A stretch of 64,000 nucleotides of DNA from an uncultured Methanosarcinales archaeon. GTDB taxonomy: Archaea; Nanobdellota; Nanobdellia; Woesearchaeales; GW2011-AR9. The number at the start of each line of letters is the position of its first letter. The first letter of the stretch is position 1. Under the pieces are notes generated by a model. It was not told the origin of the DNA. It was given only the letters and a program-made list of their open reading frames with translations, and did not search any database. This document shows, one piece after another, positions 54,325 to 64,000 of the stretch. The stretch covers positions 31,508-95,507 of the forward strand of contig CAYFMJ010000003.1 in NCBI GenBank assembly GCA_964344235.1. Direction: 5' to 3'. The translations under genes were made by a program, and so were the position numbers.

Positions 54325-55242
54325 TTATAACCCTGCTCTATGTGCTTGATATACCAATTCTCCGAGAGCATCGCCGGCACTTTGTGCTGTCTGAATCCTG
54401 CAAGGTGGGTTTGGGTGAAGAAGCGCTAGAAGTGTTTTATGAGTAAGGGCTGTTACTTCACTATCACAAAATTGTATCTCCTTAACTTTCTTCTCTGGTT
54501 TTTTCTTTCTTTTGATAAGGCGACGGATTCCACCACTAGAAAGTGTTCCAGTAGGGAATGCTTCCAAGCCAGTAATCATATGGTATACCAAACAGCCGAG
54601 GCTATATACATCAAAACGAGGATCAGAAGGAGCTCCCTCAATAGCTTCTGGAGCTCTTGCGGAAATTGTTGTGTATACTTCATATTCTATCTGGCCGATC
54701 TCTCCGAGGCTATCTAAATCAATAACAACAACCCTTTGATCTAACTCCGTTCCATTAAAATGAGGAACAACTGGATCCTCTACCAAAGCATTATCAGGTT
54801 TAACATCTCCATGAATAAGGCCGGTATTATGGACTTCCTGCAAAGTATACGCTAATTTCCGGGCGTAGCGAAAGCTTCTGAAAAGAGGTAGGTGAGTTCT
54901 CAGTGATCTAAGGCTTCTTCCTGTAATAAATGGCGCAACAAGTAACCGAGAATTATGATTAACATGTGTAGGAACACGGACATTTTCTACTTCTCTAAGA
55001 CGTTCACAATAGCTATCGATACGAAGAAGGACACTTGAAACGCCGTCAAGTGGATTCATTCTCCGAACACAAGCAATTTTAGGGAACACATCGGTTGGTC
55101 TCCCTTCTATAAGGCGGGCTTTATACGCAGTAGCGATCCCTCCCTCGCCAACTTTCTCAATTTCTTCATATGTATGGCCAGGAAATTCAAACCGTTGTAA
55201 TGTCGGATACGGGTAGAAAAATCTTCGTGGTTCTGTTGTCAT
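54325..55242 (-). CDS. Hanks-type Ser/Thr protein kinase
   Basis: GEGGIATAY, IHGDVKPDN, IDLD in place of DFG, APE, DVYSLG, R in subdomain XI. Confidence 0.85.
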   Translation of the reverse strand: MTTEPRRFFYPYPTLQRFEFPGHTYEEIEKVGEGGIATAYKARLIEGRPTDVFPKIACVRRMNPLDGVSSVLLRIDSYCERLREVENVRVPTHVNHNSRLLVAPFITGRSLRSLRTHLPLFRSFRYARKLAYTLQEVHNTGLIHGDVKPDNALVEDPVVPHFNGTELDQRVVVIDLDSLGEIGQIEYEVYTTISARAPEAIEGAPSDPRFDVYSLGCLVYHMITGLEAFPTGTLSSGGIRRLIKRKKKPEKKVKEIQFCDSEVTALTHKTLLALLHPNPPCRIQTAQSAGDALGELVYQAHRAGL

Positions 55243-55251
55243 TGTGGAGAA

Positions 55252-55682
55252 TTAGTGTTTTGCGTCCGCTAAGTTATATTCTACCGCAGTTGCAGGTTCT
55301 GGAGTTTCTGGTTGACTTGGGAAATATGATGCTAATAAGCCTGCAACAGTTACTCCTACTGCGAAAATTCCAACTGCAATAGCAGCTCGCCAAGAAGAAC
55401 CTTGTTTTCGTTTATGGAATCTTGGAATTCTTCGAGTAGGACGTTCTTGCACTGAATATTTTCTAACTTTAATCTCAATTGATGGCCGAGCTGGTTTCGG
55501 TGATCCTACTTCGTACAATGGTTCTGGAACAAAATTATCATCAATAGTCCTGTTGGGGTGTAAGAGGTTTCGTATAGCACGTGATCCCGCATTCGTCGTG
55601 TAGGGATTATAGAAATACCACGATATTGTTGCCGCTCGAATGCTCTGTCGATTCTCTTTGAAAGTTCTGGGCTAACGGTCAT
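55252..55682 (-). pseudogene. ~143-aa C-terminally anchored membrane protein split by a 1-nt deletion near 55620
   Basis: ATG 55682 frame (MTVSPELSKR..) joins the frame of ORF 55252-55518 (..WYFYNPY..) if 1 nt is added. Confidence 0.5.
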
Positions 55683-55859
55683 CTGAGGAGAGAATAGAAT
55701 CGAGTTTATAATTGTTACGTAAGAGTTGTGAAAAATTAGCAGAATATTTAAAAGAGAAAGCGGTTTTTAGAGTAATTATGTCCTCAGTGAGAAAATCTGG
55801 AAGTTAAGTATTTCTTTAGTAGTAGATTGAGGTTTGGTTTTTAGTTTGTTTATGAGATA

Positions 55860-57212
55860 ATGGAAATTACAACAACACATGGAGAAGGGTCACATCTTAC
55901 AGTTGATTTATTTGGCTGTAACGTTGAGGTACTGGGAAGTATCGAGAAAATTACTACGGTATTAACAACCCTTCCAGATGATATTAACATGACCCCTATT
56001 TCGGGGCCATTGGTTAAGTACCATCAAGCAGAGAATGAGATGGATTCTGGTGTCACGGGAGTTATTATTATTGCAGAGAGTCACATTAGTATCCACACAT
56101 ATCCGAAAAGGAAATTTGCATCGGTTGATATCTTTTCATGTAAAGAGTTTAATGTCAATAGAGCGGTTGAATTTCTGAAACAAGTTTTTTCACCAGAGAG
56201 AGTTGAGAGAAATGTGTTGCATCGAGGGTTTAAAGAGAATTTACACACAGAGAGATTTTGTGAGGAAGTAAAGGGAATAGAGATTTCAGAGGATCTTACG
56301 ATCAGTCAATTTCTTAATAGTGCGAAGCAAATAGGTTTTCAAGCAGCACACTTAGGACAAGCCGTTGATGTGTTACGGAAGATGAAGCAAGATAATGCAA
56401 CGATTTTTTTGTCATTCACTTCTAACATGGTCTCGTCTGGTTTAAGAGAAGTGTTTGCACAGATTGTGAAGGAAAAGTTGGTTGATGTTATTATCACTGG
56501 TGTGGGTTCGATTGAAGAAGATGTGATGAAAAGTTCGAAACCGTTTTTATTAGGACAATTTGCAGCAGATGATGTTGAATTACATAAGAAGGGGATAAAC
56601 AGAATTGGAAATATTTACGTTCCTGATGATAGGTATGAGGGCTTAGAGGATTTTTTGGTGCCAATCTTTACAGAGGCATTTGAAGAACAACAGAAAACAA
56701 GGAAGATGTTAACCCCCGCGGCACTGATTCGAAAGATCGGAGAGAAGATTGAAGATACAAATTCATTTTTGTATTGGAGTGTGAAGAATAATATCCCCAT
56801 TTATTGTCCTGCAATTACTGACGGTGCATTAGGACTACAATTATTTTTCTTCAAGCAGAAACATGATACGTTTGGTATTGACACGACGGGAGATATGAAA
56901 GAACTTGCTGGCTATGTTTTACAGGCAGAGAAAACAGCAGGCATTATTTTAGGAGGAGGGTTTGCGAAACATCATTTAATTGGAATTAACATTTTGCGAG
57001 AGGGGTTGGATTACGCGATCTACGTAACAACAGCACGCGAAGGAGATGGATCACTCTCTGGTGCAAGGCCAAAGGAAGCGAAGTCATGGAGTAAGTTGAA
57101 AGAGGAAGCAAATAATGTGTGTATTGAATCTGATGCAACAATTGTTTTTCCATTATTAGCGGTAGCAATGAAACGAGAGTTAGGAGGGCGCGAGAATGTT
57201 CGATTGGATTAG
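55860..57212 (+). CDS. Pyruvoyl decarboxylase (SpeD/ArgDC-like) fused to deoxyhypusine synthase
   Basis: GSHLTVD, GVTG..IAE^SHISIHTYP, VDIFSC; then GFQA..LG, FTSNMVSSGLRE, GINRIGN, CPAITDG, GGGFAKHH, DGSLSGA, EAKSWSK. Confidence 0.93.
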   Translation: MEITTTHGEGSHLTVDLFGCNVEVLGSIEKITTVLTTLPDDINMTPISGPLVKYHQAENEMDSGVTGVIIIAESHISIHTYPKRKFASVDIFSCKEFNVNRAVEFLKQVFSPERVERNVLHRGFKENLHTERFCEEVKGIEISEDLTISQFLNSAKQIGFQAAHLGQAVDVLRKMKQDNATIFLSFTSNMVSSGLREVFAQIVKEKLVDVIITGVGSIEEDVMKSSKPFLLGQFAADDVELHKKGINRIGNIYVPDDRYEGLEDFLVPIFTEAFEEQQKTRKMLTPAALIRKIGEKIEDTNSFLYWSVKNNIPIYCPAITDGALGLQLFFFKQKHDTFGIDTTGDMKELAGYVLQAEKTAGIILGGGFAKHHLIGINILREGLDYAIYVTTAREGDGSLSGARPKEAKSWSKLKEEANNVCIESDATIVFPLLAVAMKRELGGRENVRLD

Positions 57213-57747
57213 TGTTACTTTGTTATTTGCGTTGAGTTTTGTTGCAGGATTAGTGGTTAAGTACGCAGATTTTTTAGAGGATACGGTTAAAAAGAGGGGC
57301 GTAGTGCCGTATGTTGTCGGTGCTCTTTATGGTGGTTTATTGTTTTTTGTGATGTTTTTATTTCCAGAGATTACAAGTTTATGGGTGGGGATCGTTATTG
57401 GATTATTAGTTATTGGAAAGATAGATGCGCCTGCGCATTATGTTGGCGTTGGAGTGTTCTTCTTGTTGTTGGTAATGTTTGGTGTGCAAGATGTTATTGT
57501 GTGGTTATTGTTAACGGTGATTTTAGTTACGGTGTTTGAGGAGCTGTTAAATGATTATAGTGATAGAAAAGGAGTAAAAAACAAAACGCTACAGAAAATT
57601 ATTTCATGGAGACCGTTGTTAGAGGTAACATTGTTTATTATTGCAGTTACTACGGGAATGTGGCGGCCATGGTTAGCGTTATTAGGGTTTGATATTGGAT
57701 ATATATTGGTAAGTAAATATGAGAAGAGGATGGAGGTTGTGGAATGA
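57196..57747 (+). CDS. Multi-pass membrane protein inside the polyamine operon
   Basis: About 5-6 TM segments, K.AD, GKID..H motifs; overlaps both neighbours. Confidence 0.75.
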   Translation: MFDWISVTLLFALSFVAGLVVKYADFLEDTVKKRGVVPYVVGALYGGLLFFVMFLFPEITSLWVGIVIGLLVIGKIDAPAHYVGVGVFFLLLVMFGVQDVIVWLLLTVILVTVFEELLNDYSDRKGVKNKTLQKIISWRPLLEVTLFIIAVTTGMWRPWLALLGFDIGYILVSKYEKRMEVVE

Positions 57748-58589
57748 ACTTTATGAACTTACCAGAGAAATATGCACAGGGGGAATTTGTAATTCTTCCT
57801 ATTTCATATGAGAAGCATGTTACGTATGGTGGTGGAGCATCAAAAGGGCCAGCAGCAATTGTTGCAGCGAGTAAACATTTAGAATATTATGATGATCAAT
57901 TTGATTGCGAACCGTTTGAGAAAGGGATTAGGTTATTAGACGAATTGAAACTCAATGAAAAAACACCGGAAGAGATGGTTGATGTTGTTTCTAAAGAAGT
58001 GAGTAAGCATAAAGAAAAGTTTGTTATTGGATTGGGAGGGGATCATGCTGTAACAATTGGTGTTGTGAGAGGTTTAGAACAATCACATGAAGTGTTTTCA
58101 GTCGTTCAATTTGATGCGCATGCTGACTTTCGTAATAGTTGGAATGGTTCTGCACTAAATCACGCATGTATTGCACGGCAAATTAGCAAGAAGCATGAGT
58201 TGTTACAAATTGGAATCAGAAGTATGGATGTTGACGAGAAAGAATTGTTAGAAGGAGCAGAAAATGTTCATGTCATTAAAGCATATGATTTTTCATTAGA
58301 TAAAGTAAGAGAGTTATTGCCGAAACTAAAAGATAGAGTGTTTATTACAATTGATGTTGATGTGTTTGATCCAAGTTTTCTGAGAAATACAGGAACGCCC
58401 GAACCGGGTGGATTGCTGTGGAACGATGTTGTTAATTGTTTGAAATTAATTTTTGAGAATAAAACCGTGATTGGAGCAGACATAACAGAGTTTGCGCCAA
58501 AGGGAAATTATGATGCTGAAGCGTATGCGTTAGCGAAATTCGTGTATAAGATTATGGCGATGAAGGTTACTTATGAAACAAAAGTATAA
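57744..58589 (+). CDS. speB: Agmatinase
   Basis: GGDHAVT, FDAHAD, IDVDVFDP..TGTPEPGG. Confidence 0.93.
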   Translation: MNFMNLPEKYAQGEFVILPISYEKHVTYGGGASKGPAAIVAASKHLEYYDDQFDCEPFEKGIRLLDELKLNEKTPEEMVDVVSKEVSKHKEKFVIGLGGDHAVTIGVVRGLEQSHEVFSVVQFDAHADFRNSWNGSALNHACIARQISKKHELLQIGIRSMDVDEKELLEGAENVHVIKAYDFSLDKVRELLPKLKDRVFITIDVDVFDPSFLRNTGTPEPGGLLWNDVVNCLKLIFENKTVIGADITEFAPKGNYDAEAYALAKFVYKIMAMKVTYETKV

Positions 58590-58779: not shown

Positions 58780-58908
58780 ATTTTTGATCGTGAGCAGGTT
58801 TAATTTGTTTGGTATAGCTTCCGCTAGGTTTTCATAAAAAAAAGAAAACAAAGGCGAACAAAAGTTCACCAATGAGATGTAAATGAAAACCATATGTAAG
58901 GTAACACA

Positions 58909-61900
58909 AAGTATGAACGTTAGTAACCGCATGCTGAATCCCTCGTTACCTTGGAACTTACACACCGGTTCTATCAAGCCGCTCTTCTTGCGACGTTCTA
59001 AGGAATCTCTTTTCAAGGTACGCTTCGTGCTTAGATGCGTTCAGCACTTATCACTTATGGCGTAGCTGCCCGGCATGCCTTGTCAGACAACCGGTCGACC
59101 AGTGGCCACGAGCCTCCGTTCCTCTCGTACTAAGAGGTCCTTCCTTTCAGATTCCCAACACTTCCAGTAGATATCAAACAAACTGCCTCACAGCGTTCTG
59201 AACCCAGCTCACGATCCCTTTTAATGGGTGAACACCCCCACCCTTGGCAGCTTCTGCACCGCCAGGATAGGAAGAGCCGACATCGAAGTAGCAAACCGCG
59301 CCGTCGATATGAACTCTCGGGCGCGACAACTCAGTTATCCCCGGAGTAACTTTTCAGTCATTCACAGCCCTCATTAAGAAGGCTTGTGAGTTCGCTAAGC
59401 CACACTTTCGTGTTTGGAATTCGTTATGTTAGAATTCCAATCAGGCTGGCATTTGCCTTTGCACTCCACTTCGGATTTCTAAACCGAATGAGCCAACCTT
59501 TGGGCGCTATTGATATCCTTTCAACAGCGTGCCACCCCAGCCAAACTGTCCACCAACCGGTGTCCCTCAATTTAGAGGTAAGTGATATAGTTTCTAATAA
59601 GTGGTGTTACATTGACGCCTCAGTACTTCTCTGACGACAAGTACCTCAAACAGCTCCCACTTACGCTATATATTAAAAGCCACATCACAGCGACAGGCTA
59701 CAGTAAAGTTTCACGGGGTCTTCGCTTCCCACTGGAAGTCCCTGGCCTTTGCACCAGGACAGAGTATTCGGGAGATTCTACGTTGGGACAGTGGCGATCT
59801 CGTTATACCATTCATGCAGGCCGTCATTCAAACGGCAAGGCATTTCGCTCACGTCTGTTACTTTCACTCAGAAGAGTTACTGACCATTGGAATATGGCGG
59901 ATATACATTTCTGCATATCTCCTTACATCGCTGCAAGGATCGGACTATATCTTCATCTGTTGCCAGATGTTTGGCGTATAGTCTCTGAGGATTCTTCTTT
60001 AAGAAAGAAGTCTTTCCTGCTGATTGTCTCCACTTATTGATTTTCAGGGGTCGTTGCTTTGTTACCAAAACAATATCCTACAACAAGATACAGAGATTTT
60101 CCAGCATATAGCCAAATTTTTATCTCAGTTTTTTCGGTATCTGTTTAACAACCTGAGACTTAAGGCAACGAAGTGCTTACCTTAAGAGAGTTATAGTTAC
60201 TCCCGCCGTTTACCAGCTCTTCACCCCGTTGGAACGAGGCTTAAAGTACTGGCACTGGGCAGATATCACCTTCTATACACATCTTTACAGACTAGCAGAA
60301 AGTTTTGTTTTTGTTAAACAGTCGGACCACCTTTGTTACTGCGCCCTGGACTCGCACTCATGCGAATACGAATTCAGGGATCCCTTATACCGAAGGTACG
60401 GGACTAATTTGCCGAATTCCCTAACGTAGATTAAACTCACACATCTTAGGCTTCTCACCTAGGGGCACCAGTGCCGGTTCTGGGTACGGTTACTTCAGAT
60501 TTATTTCCATTCCCTTTTCAGGGGCTCCAGATACCAACCAAACGAACCATAGGTCCGCCATTCTACAATTTAATCATGTTCTCATCATTACGATACTCCC
60601 ATGATGTATCTGTATTAGCACTTCCGACAAGAAGTGTTGGTCTCTTCCAAAGCGTTAGAAATGGAACTTGCGTCGCCGCACATACTAAAGTAGTAGTGGA
60701 ATATTAACCACTTTCCCTTTCCCATTACTCCGTTAGGAGATTGGTTAGGACCGACTAACCCTTGGCTGATTGACATTGCCAAGGAACCCTTGCCCTTACG
60801 ATGGTACGGATTCTCACCGTACTAAGATCCTACTTTCACCAGGATATTCATTTCTTCCAGGTCCACGTCTCCTCACGGAAACGCTTCTGCCCTAGAAAAA
60901 CGCCCACCTATCCCCACTTTCGTGGTCTATGGTATCGGCGGTCAGCTTAGACCCGTCAATTTTCCGGGCCCACGACCTCAACAAGTAAGCTGTTACGCAC
61001 TTTTTAAAGGATGGCTGCTTCTAAGCCAACCTCCTTGCTGTCTAAGATCACGGACTCCGTTTACCCTTTATCACTTAGCTGACACTTAGGGGCCTTAACC
61101 ATAGTCTGGGTTGTTCCCCTCACGGAAATCAAGTTTACCCCAAGATCCCCTGTTTCCCAGAGTCTACAACGTTACAGCATTCGGAGTTGGACAGGAAACC
61201 GACAGATTTCTCCGCCTAAATCCCCTATCCGTAGCTCTACAACCGTAACCATCTCGTCTGAGACTTGACTAAGGTCAATTTCGGTAGGAACCTGCTATTG
61301 CCGAGCTCGATTGGCTTTTCACCCCTATTCCCAAGTCAGAAAAACACTTGCACGTAGAACTTCTTCAGGCCTCCACGACGTCTTACCATCGCTTCACCTT
61401 GCTCAGGAATAGATCGCCCGGTTTCAGGTCGTATCCCTGTGACTTATGGCACTTATCATACCATTCTCCTCGTAAACTGCGAGATTTTGCTTTCGCTTTG
61501 GCTCCCCTTTTACAGGTTAACCTCGCCACAGAAATACACTCCCTGGCACGTTATTCAAAACGCACGGTACAACTCCTAAGAGCAGTACCTCACTATCGCT
61601 ACTAGATTTCAGAGTCTTTGAACTCCCTATCAAGGGTTCTTTTCAACTTTCCCTCACGGTACTTGTATGCTATCGGTTTCGAAACGTGTTTAGTCTTAGA
61701 GGTTAATGCCCCCCATATTCCCACTCCATTTTCAAGGAGCAGTACTCCGGAGACTTCCTAGGACCAACGTATCTTACTTTACGGGACTATCACCCTGTAT
61801 CGTGTTGCTTTCCAGCAAACTTCAAGTCAATACTTTGGCCGTAATGGAAATCCATACACCACATCTCCATTACATTACTGTAACAGATTCAGTTTGGACT

Positions 61901-62132
61901 ATACCGCTTTCGTTCGCCACTACTCACGGCATCTCAATTGATTTCTTTTCCTGCAGGTACTAAGACGCTTCAATTCCCTGCGTTCCCCTACCTAAAAAGG
62001 TATAGAAGAGAGAAGTCTCATTCGGACATCTCTGGTTCAATGCCTACATGCGACTCGCCAGAGCATTTCGTTGCTTGTCACGTCCTTCATCGGCGTTTCG
62101 AACCTAGTCATCCATCTAGCAGCTTCCTAAGA
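58909..62132 (-). rRNA. rrl: 23S rRNA, archaeal; mature ends approximate
   Basis: Sarcin-ricin loop AGTACGAGAGGAAC, GGATAACTGAG, GTTCGCTACTTCGATGTCGGCTC, GAGTAACTATAAC, CGCCGATGAAGGACG on the minus strand. Confidence 0.97.
59850..60178 (-). ncRNA. Group I intron at LSU position 1931 (E. coli numbering), 329 nt, no ORF
   Basis: Inserted in CTTAAGGT^AGCGAAAT, ends in G; IGS GCCTTA; core P TATATGCTGGAAA, Q AATCAGCAGG, R TCAGAGACTA, S AAGATATAGTCC. Confidence 0.95.
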
Positions 62133-62315
62133 TGTGTTACCTTACATATGGTTCATTACTATGATGTGTTAACGTGGAGTTGAACTTCACTCCATCATAT
62201 TTCAACCGTCGTCACCGAGATTGCGAGTTCTCGATATCCGTTTGCTAATTTTTATTAGCGGTTGCGCCCCCTCACCTCGAAAGATTTGGGAACATTTGTG
62301 TGGACTTGTGTCCAA

Positions 62316-62387
62316 TGGACCCTGTGGGATTTGAACCCACGACCTCCTGCTTGCAAGGCAGGCGCTCTCCCCCTGAGCTAAGGGCCC
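62316..62387 (-). tRNA. tRNA-Ala(TGC) in the 16S-23S spacer, CCA not encoded
   Basis: GGGCCCT..CCTGC-CTTGCAA-GCAGG..GGTTCAAATCC..AGGGTCCA; G3:U70. Confidence 0.97.
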
Positions 62388-62431
62388 GGGAAAGTCATTG
62401 TATGTTTGTGCTTTTTCCGAAAAAGGAAAAA

Positions 62432-64000
<1,569 letters not shown>

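What the first reader, a model, noticed from the sequence alone, without database searches (positions are those of the whole stretch)
55860..58589. Self-cleaving decarboxylase-deoxyhypusine synthase fusion operon: a candidate spermidine-free aIF5A pathway
Seen: a SpeD-fold domain (E73^S74) fused to a DHS that keeps its catalytic Lys, then a membrane protein and agmatinase, all overlapping, with no spermidine synthase in the window. Known: SpeD homologs are often arginine decarboxylases, and Haloferax makes deoxyhypusine from agmatine using DHS plus an agmatinase-like enzyme. Inference: Arg to agmatine to modified aIF5A (or homospermidine) is channelled on one autoprocessed polypeptide, and the membrane protein may import Arg or polyamine.
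Basis: partly seen in the sequence, partly recalled or inferred. Interest (0 to 1): 0.72.

Follow-up and report, generated by a model that had tools for sequence, protein, structure and literature searches.

The report
Decarboxylase–deoxyhypusine synthase fusion operon
A tiny-genome (DPANN) archaeon with no spermidine pathway has fused a self-cleaving, probably arginine-specific decarboxylase to its only deoxyhypusine synthase, in one operon with an uncharacterised membrane protein and an agmatinase-like enzyme. This gives a compact gene set for testing whether archaea modify translation factor aIF5A from agmatine instead of spermidine.

Summary
Window 55860-57212 encodes one intact 450-aa protein: a SpeD-fold pyruvoyl domain (E73|S74, H79, C94) joined to a full deoxyhypusine synthase (K412). 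It overlaps a 183-aa membrane-protein gene, which overlaps an agmatinase-like gene.

- **Genome.** It is 96% complete. This is its only SpeD, only DHS and only arginase-fold gene. No speE or other arginine/ornithine decarboxylase was found. aIF5A is present with its target lysine.
- **Fusion.** It recurs in more than 55 protein clusters of DPANN archaea.
- **Decarboxylase domain.** It falls outside the speE-linked clade, with arginase-linked homologues. In related genomes a PLP decarboxylase sits in the DHS-ureohydrolase operon instead.
- **DHS pocket.** All three spermidine-anchoring residues are lost (D243L, N292G, D316L), partly like agmatine-dependent bacterial SpeY.
- **Membrane protein.** It has no family or recognisable fold. 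In 201 genomes of the order its strong matches occur in exactly the 12 genomes carrying this DHS type. Elsewhere it is fused to the decarboxylase or the arginase domain.

Best reading: arginine to agmatine to aIF5A (and/or homospermidine), spermidine-free; biochemistry untested. It is a new variant of the published speDA-speY-speB clusters. This scan reached the same reading before on other genomes.

The parts
55860..57212 (+). Fusion gene (450 aa, P0001): SpeD-fold pyruvoyl decarboxylase domain joined to deoxyhypusine synthase
   Evidence: Intact ORF. Pfam PF02675 and PF01916 both match. TIGR00321 scores 332.5 against a cut-off of 304.25. AF2 model has pLDDT 90.
55860..56219 (+). SpeD-like (class 1b AdoMetDC-fold) domain, aa 1-120; probable L-arginine decarboxylase (SpeDA-like)
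   Evidence: PF02675 2.7e-29. PDB SpeD hits 2iii and 1tlu. In the tree it lies outside the speE-linked clade. pLDDT above 90 for aa 11-120.
56076..56081 (+). Predicted autoprocessing site E73|S74. S74 would become the pyruvoyl group at the N-terminus of the chain that carries the DHS domain
   Evidence: Codons GAG AGT. S74 and H79 are in 57/57 fused homologues, C94 in 54/57 and E73 in 49/57. The motif is IAESHISIHTYP. Cleavage itself is inferred.
56220..56264 (+). Interdomain linker, about aa 121-135
   Evidence: pLDDT drops to 58 for aa 121-130 and 81 for aa 131-140, between two confident domains.
56265..57182 (+). Deoxyhypusine synthase domain, aa 136-441; the only DHS in the genome
   Evidence: PF01916 1.6e-105. 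Best PDB match 7cmc_A at 8.7e-87; ungapped alignment to human DHS 95-352. Single genomic copy.
56835..57056 (+). Donor-pocket positions L326, G375 and L399, which replace human D243, N292 and D316 (the spermidine amine anchors); also A323, which replaces S240
   Evidence: Alignment to human DHS. Roles of the human residues from PMC7226451. Codons checked. A/L/G/L(V) is shared by 120 homologues.
57093..57095 (+). Catalytic lysine K412 (human K329). H371, E406 and W410 are also kept
57196..57747 (+). 183-aa polytopic membrane protein (P0002, called MEM in this report) of an uncharacterised family. It is the constant partner of this DHS type. Function unknown
   Evidence: No Pfam or NCBIfam match. 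AF2 pLDDT 93, all-helical. No PDB fold match above noise. 664 family representatives. Fused to SpeD or arginase domains elsewhere. Co-occurs 12/12 with the L-G-L DHS in the order sample.
57744..58589 (+). Agmatinase-like ureohydrolase (281 aa, P0003); the only arginase-fold gene in the genome
   Evidence: PF00491 3.7e-54 and TIGR01230 207.5 against a cut-off of 174.3. Mn ligands H101, D124, H126, D128, D204 and D206 are present; best PDB hit 3pzl, an agmatine ureohydrolase. Single copy.

Best explanation
This is a spermidine-independent, arginine-fed module that serves the archaeon's only deoxyhypusine synthase.

**Proposed steps**
1. The N-terminal SpeD-fold domain cleaves itself between E73 and S74. 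That yields a 73-aa beta chain and a pyruvoyl-headed alpha chain that continues into the DHS domain. It decarboxylates L-arginine to agmatine (inferred).
2. The DHS domain keeps K412, H371, W410 and E406. It oxidises the primary amine of agmatine with NAD and transfers the 4-guanidinobutyl group to the conserved lysine of aIF5A (motif PGKHGHAK). It may also transfer it to a second agmatine, giving bis-guanidino-homospermidine (G44G) as bacterial SpeY does (inferred).
3. The agmatinase-like enzyme removes urea, giving deoxyhypusine-aIF5A and/or homospermidine (inferred).

**The membrane protein.** The 183-aa protein is translationally coupled between the two enzymes and is an integral fourth component. 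I think it most likely tethers the soluble enzymes at the membrane and supplies or gates the cationic substrate (imported arginine or agmatine). Its actual activity is unknown.

**Shown here:** the gene structure, the conserved catalytic residues, the genome inventory, the co-occurrence and the domain fusions. **Inferred:** every substrate and product.
For: **Genome inventory (96.3% complete)**
- No Spermine_synth match.
- One SpeD, one DHS and one arginase-fold gene, all in this operon.
- No pyruvoyl PdaD-type decarboxylase and no alanine-racemase-fold PLP decarboxylase.
- aIF5A is present with STSRPGKHGHAK.
- No argininosuccinate synthase, so arginine is probably imported.

**Decarboxylase domain**
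- S74 and H79 are kept in 57/57 fused homologues and C94 in 54/57.
- In a 50-sequence tree a 100/99 branch separates speE-adjacent SpeDs from the clade that holds all DHS-fused, membrane-fused and arginase-adjacent SpeDs.
- Twelve related genomes carry the operon DHS, then an alanine-racemase-fold PLP decarboxylase, then an arginase-like gene. A PLP amino-acid decarboxylase therefore accompanies the DHS and the ureohydrolase there, the role proposed here for the SpeD-like domain.
- Published precedent: SpeD homologues from Woesearchaeota and Diapherotrites that cluster with speY and speB/aguAB are specific arginine decarboxylases (PMC10407285).

**DHS pocket**
- In human DHS, D316 binds spermidine N1, and D243 with N292 bind N10 (PMC7226451). 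Here these positions are L399, L326 and G375. The same holds in all 120 closest homologues.
- The DHS copies in the PLP-decarboxylase/ureohydrolase operons are F-L-M at these positions.
- D-N-D DHS copies occur in G039, which has a genuine speE, and in G016, G025, G031 and G194, which have no arginase gene.
- Two bona fide agmatine-dependent SpeY proteins (NF002699 scores 564 and 592, cut-off 500) carry F at position 243 and C or L at 316.

**Ureohydrolase.** All six Mn ligands are present.

**Membrane protein**
- It lies immediately downstream of 10 of 10 L-G-L DHS genes examined and none of 11 others.
- Strong matches occur in exactly the 12 genomes of 201 that carry the L-G-L DHS.
- It is fused to SpeD in 9 of the 10 longest family members and in 17 species-representative loci, and to an arginase domain in P0309.
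Against: - No enzyme of this operon or of its close homologues has been assayed.
- SpeDA cannot be told from true AdoMetDC by sequence motifs. The Pro that Li et al. report as poorly conserved in SpeDA is, on my reading of which Pro they mean, kept here as P82.
- The L-G-L pocket offers no obvious acidic partner for a guanidinium group. SpeY has Asp at position 292 and Asn at 288, whereas this DHS has Gly and His. The pockets are therefore only partly alike.
- The Haloferax model on which the aIF5A route rests was never reconstituted.
- Nearly all genomes of this order lack a genuine speE whatever their DHS type. Absence of speE therefore does not discriminate, and scavenged host polyamines remain possible.
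- Within the window's own order sample the membrane gene is always next to the L-G-L DHS wherever contigs allow. Among species representatives across DPANN, 20 of 63 L-G-L loci have none within 3.5 kb.
Confidence: 0.6

Rival explanations
1. The module is a homospermidine pathway of the SpeY kind. Two agmatines are coupled to G44G, and the ureohydrolase releases homospermidine as the cell's triamine. aIF5A is then modified secondarily from homospermidine or from a scavenged polyamine, or not at all.
For: The set of an arginine decarboxylase, a DHS homologue and a SpeB-like enzyme is exactly the published bacterial diagmatine pathway (PMC13625781). Li et al. 2023 labelled the Woesearchaeota and Diapherotrites DHS homologues speY. 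Positions 243 and 316 are hydrophobic, as in SpeY.
Against: It is the only DHS in a genome that keeps aIF5A with its target lysine. It scores as an archaeal DHS (TIGR00321 above cut-off) and only 135 against the 500 cut-off on the SpeY model. H288 is kept, whereas SpeY has Asn there. If homospermidine were the donor for aIF5A, its distal amine would need the D243/N292 anchors, which are missing. The two roles are not mutually exclusive.
Confidence: 0.2
2. Arginine goes to agmatine, the agmatinase makes putrescine, and the DHS uses putrescine as aminobutyl donor for aIF5A, or couples two putrescines to homospermidine.
For: P0003 passes the agmatinase equivalog model TIGR01230. Its closest solved relative is an agmatine ureohydrolase.
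Against: In human DHS, putrescine is held by D243 and N292, and both are lost here. T. kodakarensis DHS does not use putrescine. SpeY-associated ureohydrolases act on G44G and not on agmatine, and a true agmatinase would starve an agmatine-dependent synthase.
Confidence: 0.08
3. The SpeD domain is a genuine AdoMet decarboxylase. The DHS uses spermidine that is made by an unrecognised aminopropyltransferase or taken from the host.
For: TIGR03330 SAM_DCase_Bsu scores 89.1 against a cut-off of 75.65. Its closest free-standing homologues (45-51% identity) include Aquificae proteins named AdoMetDC. DPANN archaea scavenge many metabolites (general knowledge).
Against: No speE in the genome. The domain lies across a 100/99 branch from the speE-linked SpeDs. 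The spermidine anchors of the DHS are lost. An agmatinase-like gene sits in the operon. A PLP amino-acid decarboxylase accompanies the DHS and the ureohydrolase in related operons.
Confidence: 0.05
4. The membrane protein and the decarboxylase form a precursor/product exchange system (arginine in, agmatine out) for proton consumption or energy gain. The link to the DHS is secondary.
For: Membrane-domain/SpeD fusions are frequent. The family keeps many acidic residues at 81-99% across 149 representatives: D25, D29, D77, D/E115, E116, E143 and D166. That would suit a cationic substrate.
Against: The membrane gene follows the DHS type, not the decarboxylase. It sits beside L-G-L DHS genes that have no adjacent SpeD (G124, G066, G041), and G066 has no SpeD match at all. 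It is also fused to an arginase domain. No similarity to any known transporter fold was found.
Confidence: 0.07

Closest known systems
speDA-speY-speB/aguAB gene clusters; SpeD-derived pyruvoyl arginine decarboxylases (Li, Liang, Phillips and Michael, JBC 2023, PMC10407285)
   Same: A SpeD homologue in a genome without speE and without a canonical arginine or ornithine decarboxylase, clustered with a DHS homologue and an agmatinase homologue. The published examples include a Ca. Woesearchaeota MAG, and its SpeD homologue was shown to be arginine-specific.
   Different: Here the decarboxylase and the DHS form one polypeptide. The only fusions that paper describes are SpeD-SpeD. I found no paper mentioning a SpeD-DHS fusion. 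The papers read mention no membrane protein in these clusters. I could not measure identity to the assayed protein PIN80235.
[quoted passage not shown]
   Same: A DHS-fold, NAD- and lysine-dependent enzyme working with an arginine decarboxylase and a SpeB-like ureohydrolase. Hydrophobic residues replace D243 and D316.
   Different: P0001 scores 135 against a cut-off of 500 on the SpeY model but passes the archaeal DHS model. It keeps H288 where SpeY has Asn, and has Gly at position 292 where SpeY has Asp. It is the sole DHS of an organism with aIF5A, so it must also serve, or only serve, protein modification. That paper leaves open whether archaea have agmatine-dependent DHS.
Proposed agmatine route to deoxyhypusine in Haloferax volcanii (Prunetti et al., Archaea 2016, PMC5178350)
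   Same: No spermidine, an essential arginine decarboxylase, an essential agmatinase-like gene clustered with the DHS and aIF5A genes, and a DHS whose spermidine-binding residues are not conserved.
   Different: Haloferax uses a PdaD-type decarboxylase and separate genes, and no membrane partner is reported. The haloarchaeal difference was reported at H288, which is kept here. The model was never reconstituted in vitro.
Canonical spermidine-dependent DHS (human 1RLZ/6XXJ; Thermococcus kodakarensis; Pyrococcus-type 7CMC)
   Same: Same fold, with the catalytic Lys, His, Trp and Glu. 7cmc_A matches at 8.7e-87. The alignment to the human enzyme is ungapped over 258 residues.
   Different: D243, N292 and D316 are replaced by L, G and L. 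The Pyrococcus-type enzyme keeps D243 and N292. There is an N-terminal pyruvoyl-enzyme domain.

Membership tests
Class 1b AdoMetDC/SpeD fold (Pfam PF02675) | Profile match above the curated cut-off | tested here: met
   102.1 bits against a cut-off of 25, covering the full 107-position profile.
Class 1b AdoMetDC/SpeD fold (Pfam PF02675) | Self-processing Ser preceded by Glu, with the catalytic His at +5 and Cys at +20 (T. maritima S63/H68/C83) | tested here: met
   E73-S74, H79 and C94. They are conserved in 49-57 of 57 fused homologues. Residue roles are from PMC10407285.
Functional AdoMet decarboxylase (spermidine pathway) | Partner aminopropyltransferase (SpeE) in the genome, and membership of the speE-linked clade | tested here: not met
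   No PF01564 match in the 96.3%-complete genome. A 100/99 branch separates this domain from the speE-adjacent SpeDs.
SpeDA (SpeD-derived L-arginine decarboxylase, Li et al. 2023) | Genomic criteria used by the authors: no SpeE, no canonical ADC/ODC, and clustering with speB or aguAB and a DHS homologue | tested here: met
SpeDA (SpeD-derived L-arginine decarboxylase, Li et al. 2023) | Decarboxylates L-arginine and not AdoMet, ornithine or lysine | not testable with these tools
   This needs an enzyme assay. The only sequence cue in the paper is the loss of a Pro that is invariant in AdoMetDC. If that Pro is the one in HTxP, it is kept here as P82, but which Pro the paper means could not be verified.
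Deoxyhypusine synthase (TIGR00321 / PF01916) | Equivalog model above its cut-off, with the catalytic Lys329, His288, Trp327 and Glu323 | tested here: met
   332.5 against 304.25. K412, H371, W410 and E406 are present.
Deoxyhypusine synthase (TIGR00321 / PF01916) | Spermidine-anchoring residues D243, N292 and D316 | tested here: not met
   They are L326, G375 and L399.
Deoxyhypusine synthase (TIGR00321 / PF01916) | An aIF5A substrate with the target lysine is encoded in the genome | tested here: met
   TIGR00037 scores 149.7 bits. The 130-aa ORF carries STSRPGKHGHAK.
[quoted passage not shown] | Equivalog model above its cut-off | tested here: not met
   135 bits against a cut-off of 500. Two true SpeY proteins score 564 and 592.
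Agmatinase / ureohydrolase (TIGR01230, PF00491) | Model above its cut-off, with the six Mn ligands | tested here: met
   207.5 against 174.3. H101, D124, H126, D128, D204 and D206 are present.
Agmatinase / ureohydrolase (TIGR01230, PF00491) | Substrate: agmatine, G44G or guanidinobutyl-lysine on aIF5A | not testable with these tools
   SpeY-associated homologues are G44G-specific. No sequence discriminator is available here.
Any known membrane transporter or enzyme family (for the 183-aa protein) | A profile or fold match | tested here: inconclusive
   No Pfam or NCBIfam hit. Best Foldseek PDB E-value is 0.87. Best VIA-align Z is 7.5, within the noise for helical bundles. The ESM Atlas returns only 'hypothetical protein' clusters.

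The most novel reading that the evidence does not exclude
The L-G-L pocket, and the related F-L-M pocket, mark agmatine-dependent archaeal deoxyhypusine synthases. Such enzymes would answer the question Li et al. 2026 leave open. The conserved membrane protein of about 175 aa would be a new fourth component of this pathway, either a substrate-delivering transporter or a membrane enzyme. It would assemble the decarboxylase, the DHS and the ureohydrolase into a membrane-bound complex that makes deoxyhypusine on aIF5A straight from arginine.
Probability: 0.35. Interest if true: 0.8.

Novelty: new variant of a known kind. Interest (0 to 1): 0.6.

Why it matters
Hypusine or deoxyhypusine on (a/e)IF5A is generally regarded as essential and is described as strictly spermidine-derived. 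How archaea without spermidine make it has been open since the unreconstituted Haloferax model of 2016. The 2026 SpeY study asks explicitly whether archaea have agmatine-dependent DHS.

- **A minimal testable set.** This operon puts a decarboxylase-DHS fusion, a ureohydrolase and the aIF5A substrate in one small genome.
- **A sequence signature.** The residues at human positions 243, 292 and 316 sort DHS genes of one archaeal order into three classes. Each class has a matching gene context.
- **An unstudied partner.** The membrane-protein family has 664 representatives, and its constant linkage and fusions say it belongs to the pathway.

If confirmed, the textbook donor rule for hypusination would need a second branch. 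The origin of bacterial SpeY from archaeal DHS would also gain a functional explanation.

Tried and rejected
- **Link to an assayed enzyme.** I tried to tie the SpeD domain directly to the assayed Woesearchaeota enzyme PIN80235. Cluster look-ups of ten free-standing homologues gave other accessions, and the paper's supplement holds no sequences. No identity value could be given.
- **speE absence as a discriminator.** Only about 4 of 201 genomes in the order have a full-length, high-scoring SpeE, so absence is the rule there. I dropped it as an argument specific to this clade.
- **Agmatine demand for tRNA-Ile agmatidine.** No TiaS domain was found in the genome, so this argument for an arginine decarboxylase does not apply.
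- **Fold of the membrane protein.** Foldseek against the PDB and a full VIA-align sweep gave nothing above the level expected for helical bundles. Copper transporter Ctr1 (Z 7.5, 88 residues) was rejected as chance.
- **A diiron hydroxylase role (an archaeal DOHH substitute).** I consider this unlikely, because only one histidine is conserved.
- **The search for related loci with the membrane-protein alignment.** It failed for lack of a conserved stretch. I used the fusion alignment instead.
- **A single origin of the fusion.** Not supported. The DHS tree needs at least two gains or losses.
- **Haloferax chromosomal DHS.** It could not be fetched. Only the pHV3 paralogue was compared; it is N-M-L at the three positions.
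Full report
**1. What is in the window**

Three co-directional, overlapping ORFs lie at 55860-58589 on the + strand.

The first is 55860-57212 (450 aa, P0001).
- It matches Pfam AdoMet_dc over aa 12-123 (2.7e-29) and Pfam DS over aa 151-435 (1.6e-105).
- It passes the NCBIfam deoxyhypusine synthase equivalog TIGR00321 (332.5 against 304.25).
- It scores only 135 against a cut-off of 500 on the SpeY model NF002699.
- The motif IAESHISIHTYP puts the predicted self-processing site at E73|S74 (56076-56081).
- H79 and C94 follow at the spacing of the T. maritima catalytic residues.
- The DHS part aligns without gaps to human DHS 95-352 (offset +83). It keeps K412, H371, W410 and E406, equivalent to human K329, H288, W327 and E323.
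- An AlphaFold2 model built on 43 fused homologues has mean pLDDT 90. It shows two confident domains and a low-confidence linker at about aa 121-135.

The second ORF is 57196-57747 (183 aa, P0002; called MEM below). It overlaps the first by 17 nt and has no Pfam or NCBIfam match.

The third is 57744-58589 (281 aa, P0003). It overlaps the second by 4 nt. It passes the agmatinase equivalog TIGR01230 (207.5 against 174.3) and keeps all six Mn ligands.

Directly downstream, on the other strand, lies an archaeal rRNA operon.

**2. Genome inventory**

The assembly is 1.19 Mb in 37 contigs and 96.3% complete. The closest named homologues are from Candidatus Woesearchaeota.
- No spermidine synthase family match.
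- One SpeD homologue and one DHS, both in this gene.
- One arginase-fold gene, P0003.
- No PdaD-type pyruvoyl arginine decarboxylase and no alanine-racemase-fold PLP decarboxylase.
- No argininosuccinate synthase and no TiaS domain.
- aIF5A is present and carries the canonical STSRPGKHGHAK loop.

A caveat applies. In a 201-genome sample of the same GTDB order, only about four genomes have a convincing SpeE. Lack of speE is thus the norm for the order, not a peculiarity of this clade.

**3. The fusion is real and recurrent**
- A search of 5.8 billion proteins returned the same two-domain architecture in 57 of the 120 best hits (47-74% identity). Where named, they are annotated only as 'deoxyhypusine synthase' from Woesearchaeota or Aenigmatarchaeota.
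- S74 and H79 are invariant in these 57, and C94 is present in 54.
- In the order sample, 7 of 201 genomes carry the fusion. G121, one of the seven, is an unpublished genome.
- On a DHS tree the fused genes sit among unfused relatives and need at least two gains or losses.

**4. What the decarboxylase domain probably does**

Sequence alone cannot separate arginine-specific SpeDA from true AdoMetDC. Three independent context tests were possible.
- **Tree.** In a tree of 50 SpeD domains, a long 100/99 branch splits two groups. One group holds all speE-adjacent SpeDs (G058, G102, G190). The other holds all DHS-fused, membrane-fused and arginase-adjacent SpeDs. G039 and G102 have one copy in each group, which is the pattern Li et al. 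used to find arginine decarboxylases.
- **Equivalent operons.** In twelve other genomes of the order the operon is DHS, then a 340-390-aa alanine-racemase-fold PLP decarboxylase, then an arginase-like gene. A PLP amino-acid decarboxylase therefore accompanies the DHS and the ureohydrolase there, the role proposed here for the SpeD-like domain.
- **Published assays.** SpeD homologues from Woesearchaeota and Diapherotrites clusters were assayed and are arginine-specific.

**5. The DHS has a changed donor pocket**

In human DHS, spermidine N1 binds D316, and N10 binds D243 and N292 (PMC7226451). In P0001 these are L399, L326 and G375, and S240 is A323. All 120 closest homologues, fused or not, share A/L/G/L(V).

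About 45 DHS genes of the order sample were typed. They fall into three classes.
- **D-N-D.** Seen in G039, which has a genuine SpeE and a speE-clade SpeD. Also seen in G016, G025, G031 and G194, which have no arginase gene.
- **F-L-M.** Seen in every PLP-decarboxylase/ureohydrolase operon.
- **L-G-L.** This is the clade of the window.

I fetched two bona fide agmatine-dependent SpeY proteins from plasmid records. One, from Sphingomonas, lies next to a type III PLP enzyme. They have F at position 243 and C or L at 316. They also have D at 292 and N at 288, which the archaeal enzymes do not.

Loss of the amine anchors argues against spermidine, homospermidine and putrescine as donors. It is compatible with agmatine, but the pocket is not a copy of SpeY's.

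**6. The membrane protein belongs to the module**

*Position next to the DHS*
- A homologue lies immediately downstream of all 10 L-G-L DHS genes examined in the order sample. That holds whether SpeD is fused, adjacent or elsewhere. It lies next to none of 11 genes of other types.
- With a family profile, strong matches (at least 169 bits) occur in exactly 12 of 201 genomes. These are the same 12 that carry the L-G-L DHS, they are spread over 11 GTDB families, and G121 is again among them.
- The window's two same-family relatives have neither the L-G-L DHS nor the membrane protein.

*Size of the family and domain fusions*
- A profile search of 1.84 billion representatives finds 664 members.
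- Nine of the ten longest carry a C-terminal AdoMet_dc domain, and one carries an arginase domain.
- Their loci read DHS | MEM-SpeD and DHS | MEM-arginase.
- A scan of species-representative genomes returned 80 loci from Woese-, Aenigmat-, Micr- and Iainarchaeota. The architectures are:
  - [SpeD-DHS] | MEM | (arginase-like);
  - SpeD | DHS | MEM;
  - DHS | MEM;
  - MEM | DHS;
  - [MEM-SpeD] | DHS, 10 loci;
  - DHS | [MEM-SpeD], 7 loci.
- 49 of 69 loci with an L-G-L-like pocket have the membrane domain within 3.5 kb, against 0 of 7 D-N-D loci.

*Structure and conservation*
- The model is confident (pLDDT 93) and all-helical, and it has no PDB match above noise.
- Over 149 representatives these residues are 76-99% conserved: K22, D25, D29, Y45, G46, K75, D77, H81, D/E115, E116, R139, E143, D166 and Y169.
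- That is more than a passive anchor would need.
- The C-terminal fusions place its C-terminus in the cytoplasm (inference).
- What it does is unknown. Substrate delivery combined with scaffolding is my preferred guess, and a membrane enzyme is the alternative.

**7. Mechanism proposed**

Arginine, probably imported, is decarboxylated to agmatine by the pyruvoyl domain. After self-cleavage, the alpha chain of that domain remains covalently joined to the DHS. The DHS transfers the guanidinobutyl group of agmatine to the aIF5A lysine, or to a second agmatine. The ureohydrolase then removes urea.

All substrates are inferred.

**8. Relation to what is known**

The closest published system is the speDA-speY-speB cluster, which includes a Woesearchaeota example (PMC10407285). 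I found no paper describing a SpeD-DHS fusion or the membrane partner. PMC13625781 leaves open whether archaea have agmatine-dependent DHS.

I looked up earlier notes of this scan only after my own analysis. They describe the same fusion, the membrane-SpeD fusions and the PLP-decarboxylase operon in other genomes, with the same reading. They also describe SpeDA-SpeY fusions in Marine Group II archaea.

I therefore class this as a new variant of a known kind. It has a genuinely uncharacterised component and a testable prediction.

**9. Claims that rest on unpublished genomes**

G121 is one of the 7 fusion genomes and one of the 12 membrane-protein/L-G-L genomes. G112, G132 and G183 enter only the order-wide tallies.

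Noticed in passing
window 58901-64000 (- strand): An archaeal rRNA operon lies directly downstream: 16S at 62433-64000, tRNA-Ala(TGC) at 62316-62387 and 23S at 58901-62140. Rfam finds a group I intron at 59921-60159 inside the 23S (85.6 bits).
   Followed up: partly
window 55243-55859: A 617-nt gap without a convincing gene lies between the divergent upstream gene (54325-55242, - strand) and the fusion gene. That is long for a 1.2-Mb genome. Rfam finds nothing there.
   Followed up: no
L033-L044 (G028, G022, G006, G085, G053, G139, G192, G145, G097, G060, G034, G098): Other members of the order share a conserved operon: DHS, then a compact (about 340-390 aa) alanine-racemase-fold PLP decarboxylase, then an arginase-like gene. 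All twelve DHS copies have F at position 243 and M at 316 (F-L-M in ten of them).
   Followed up: partly
L070 340-1131 (G186:C21): One 264-aa ORF holds two tandem SpeD-like domains. Both sit on long branches within the speE-linked clade. Li et al. 2023 state that they did not detect SpeD-SpeD fusions in archaea.
   Followed up: no
G023, G132, G001, G135, G100, G027, G187 and others: Many genomes of the order have ORFs of 680-750 aa with a partial Spermine_synth match (60-105 bits, profile positions about 4-131). These could be long SpeE-like proteins. I did not count them as genuine SpeE.
   Followed up: no
L120, L132, L073, L074, L081, L083, L152 (record titles): Archaeal DHS/membrane-protein loci sit in records titled Candidatus Falkowbacteria, Chloroflexi or 'uncultured Methanosarcinales'. 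These are probably mis-binned or mislabelled MAGs. That may explain why the ESM Atlas lists Methanobacteriota for the membrane family.
   Followed up: no
G000 whole genome: No TiaS (agmatidine synthetase) domain and no argininosuccinate synthase were found in the 96%-complete assembly.
   Followed up: partly
L032 3938-4912 (Haloferax volcanii pHV3): Haloferax species carry a plasmid-borne DHS paralogue next to a DoxX membrane protein and an amino-acid racemase. It has N, M and L at the three spermidine-anchor positions.
   Followed up: no
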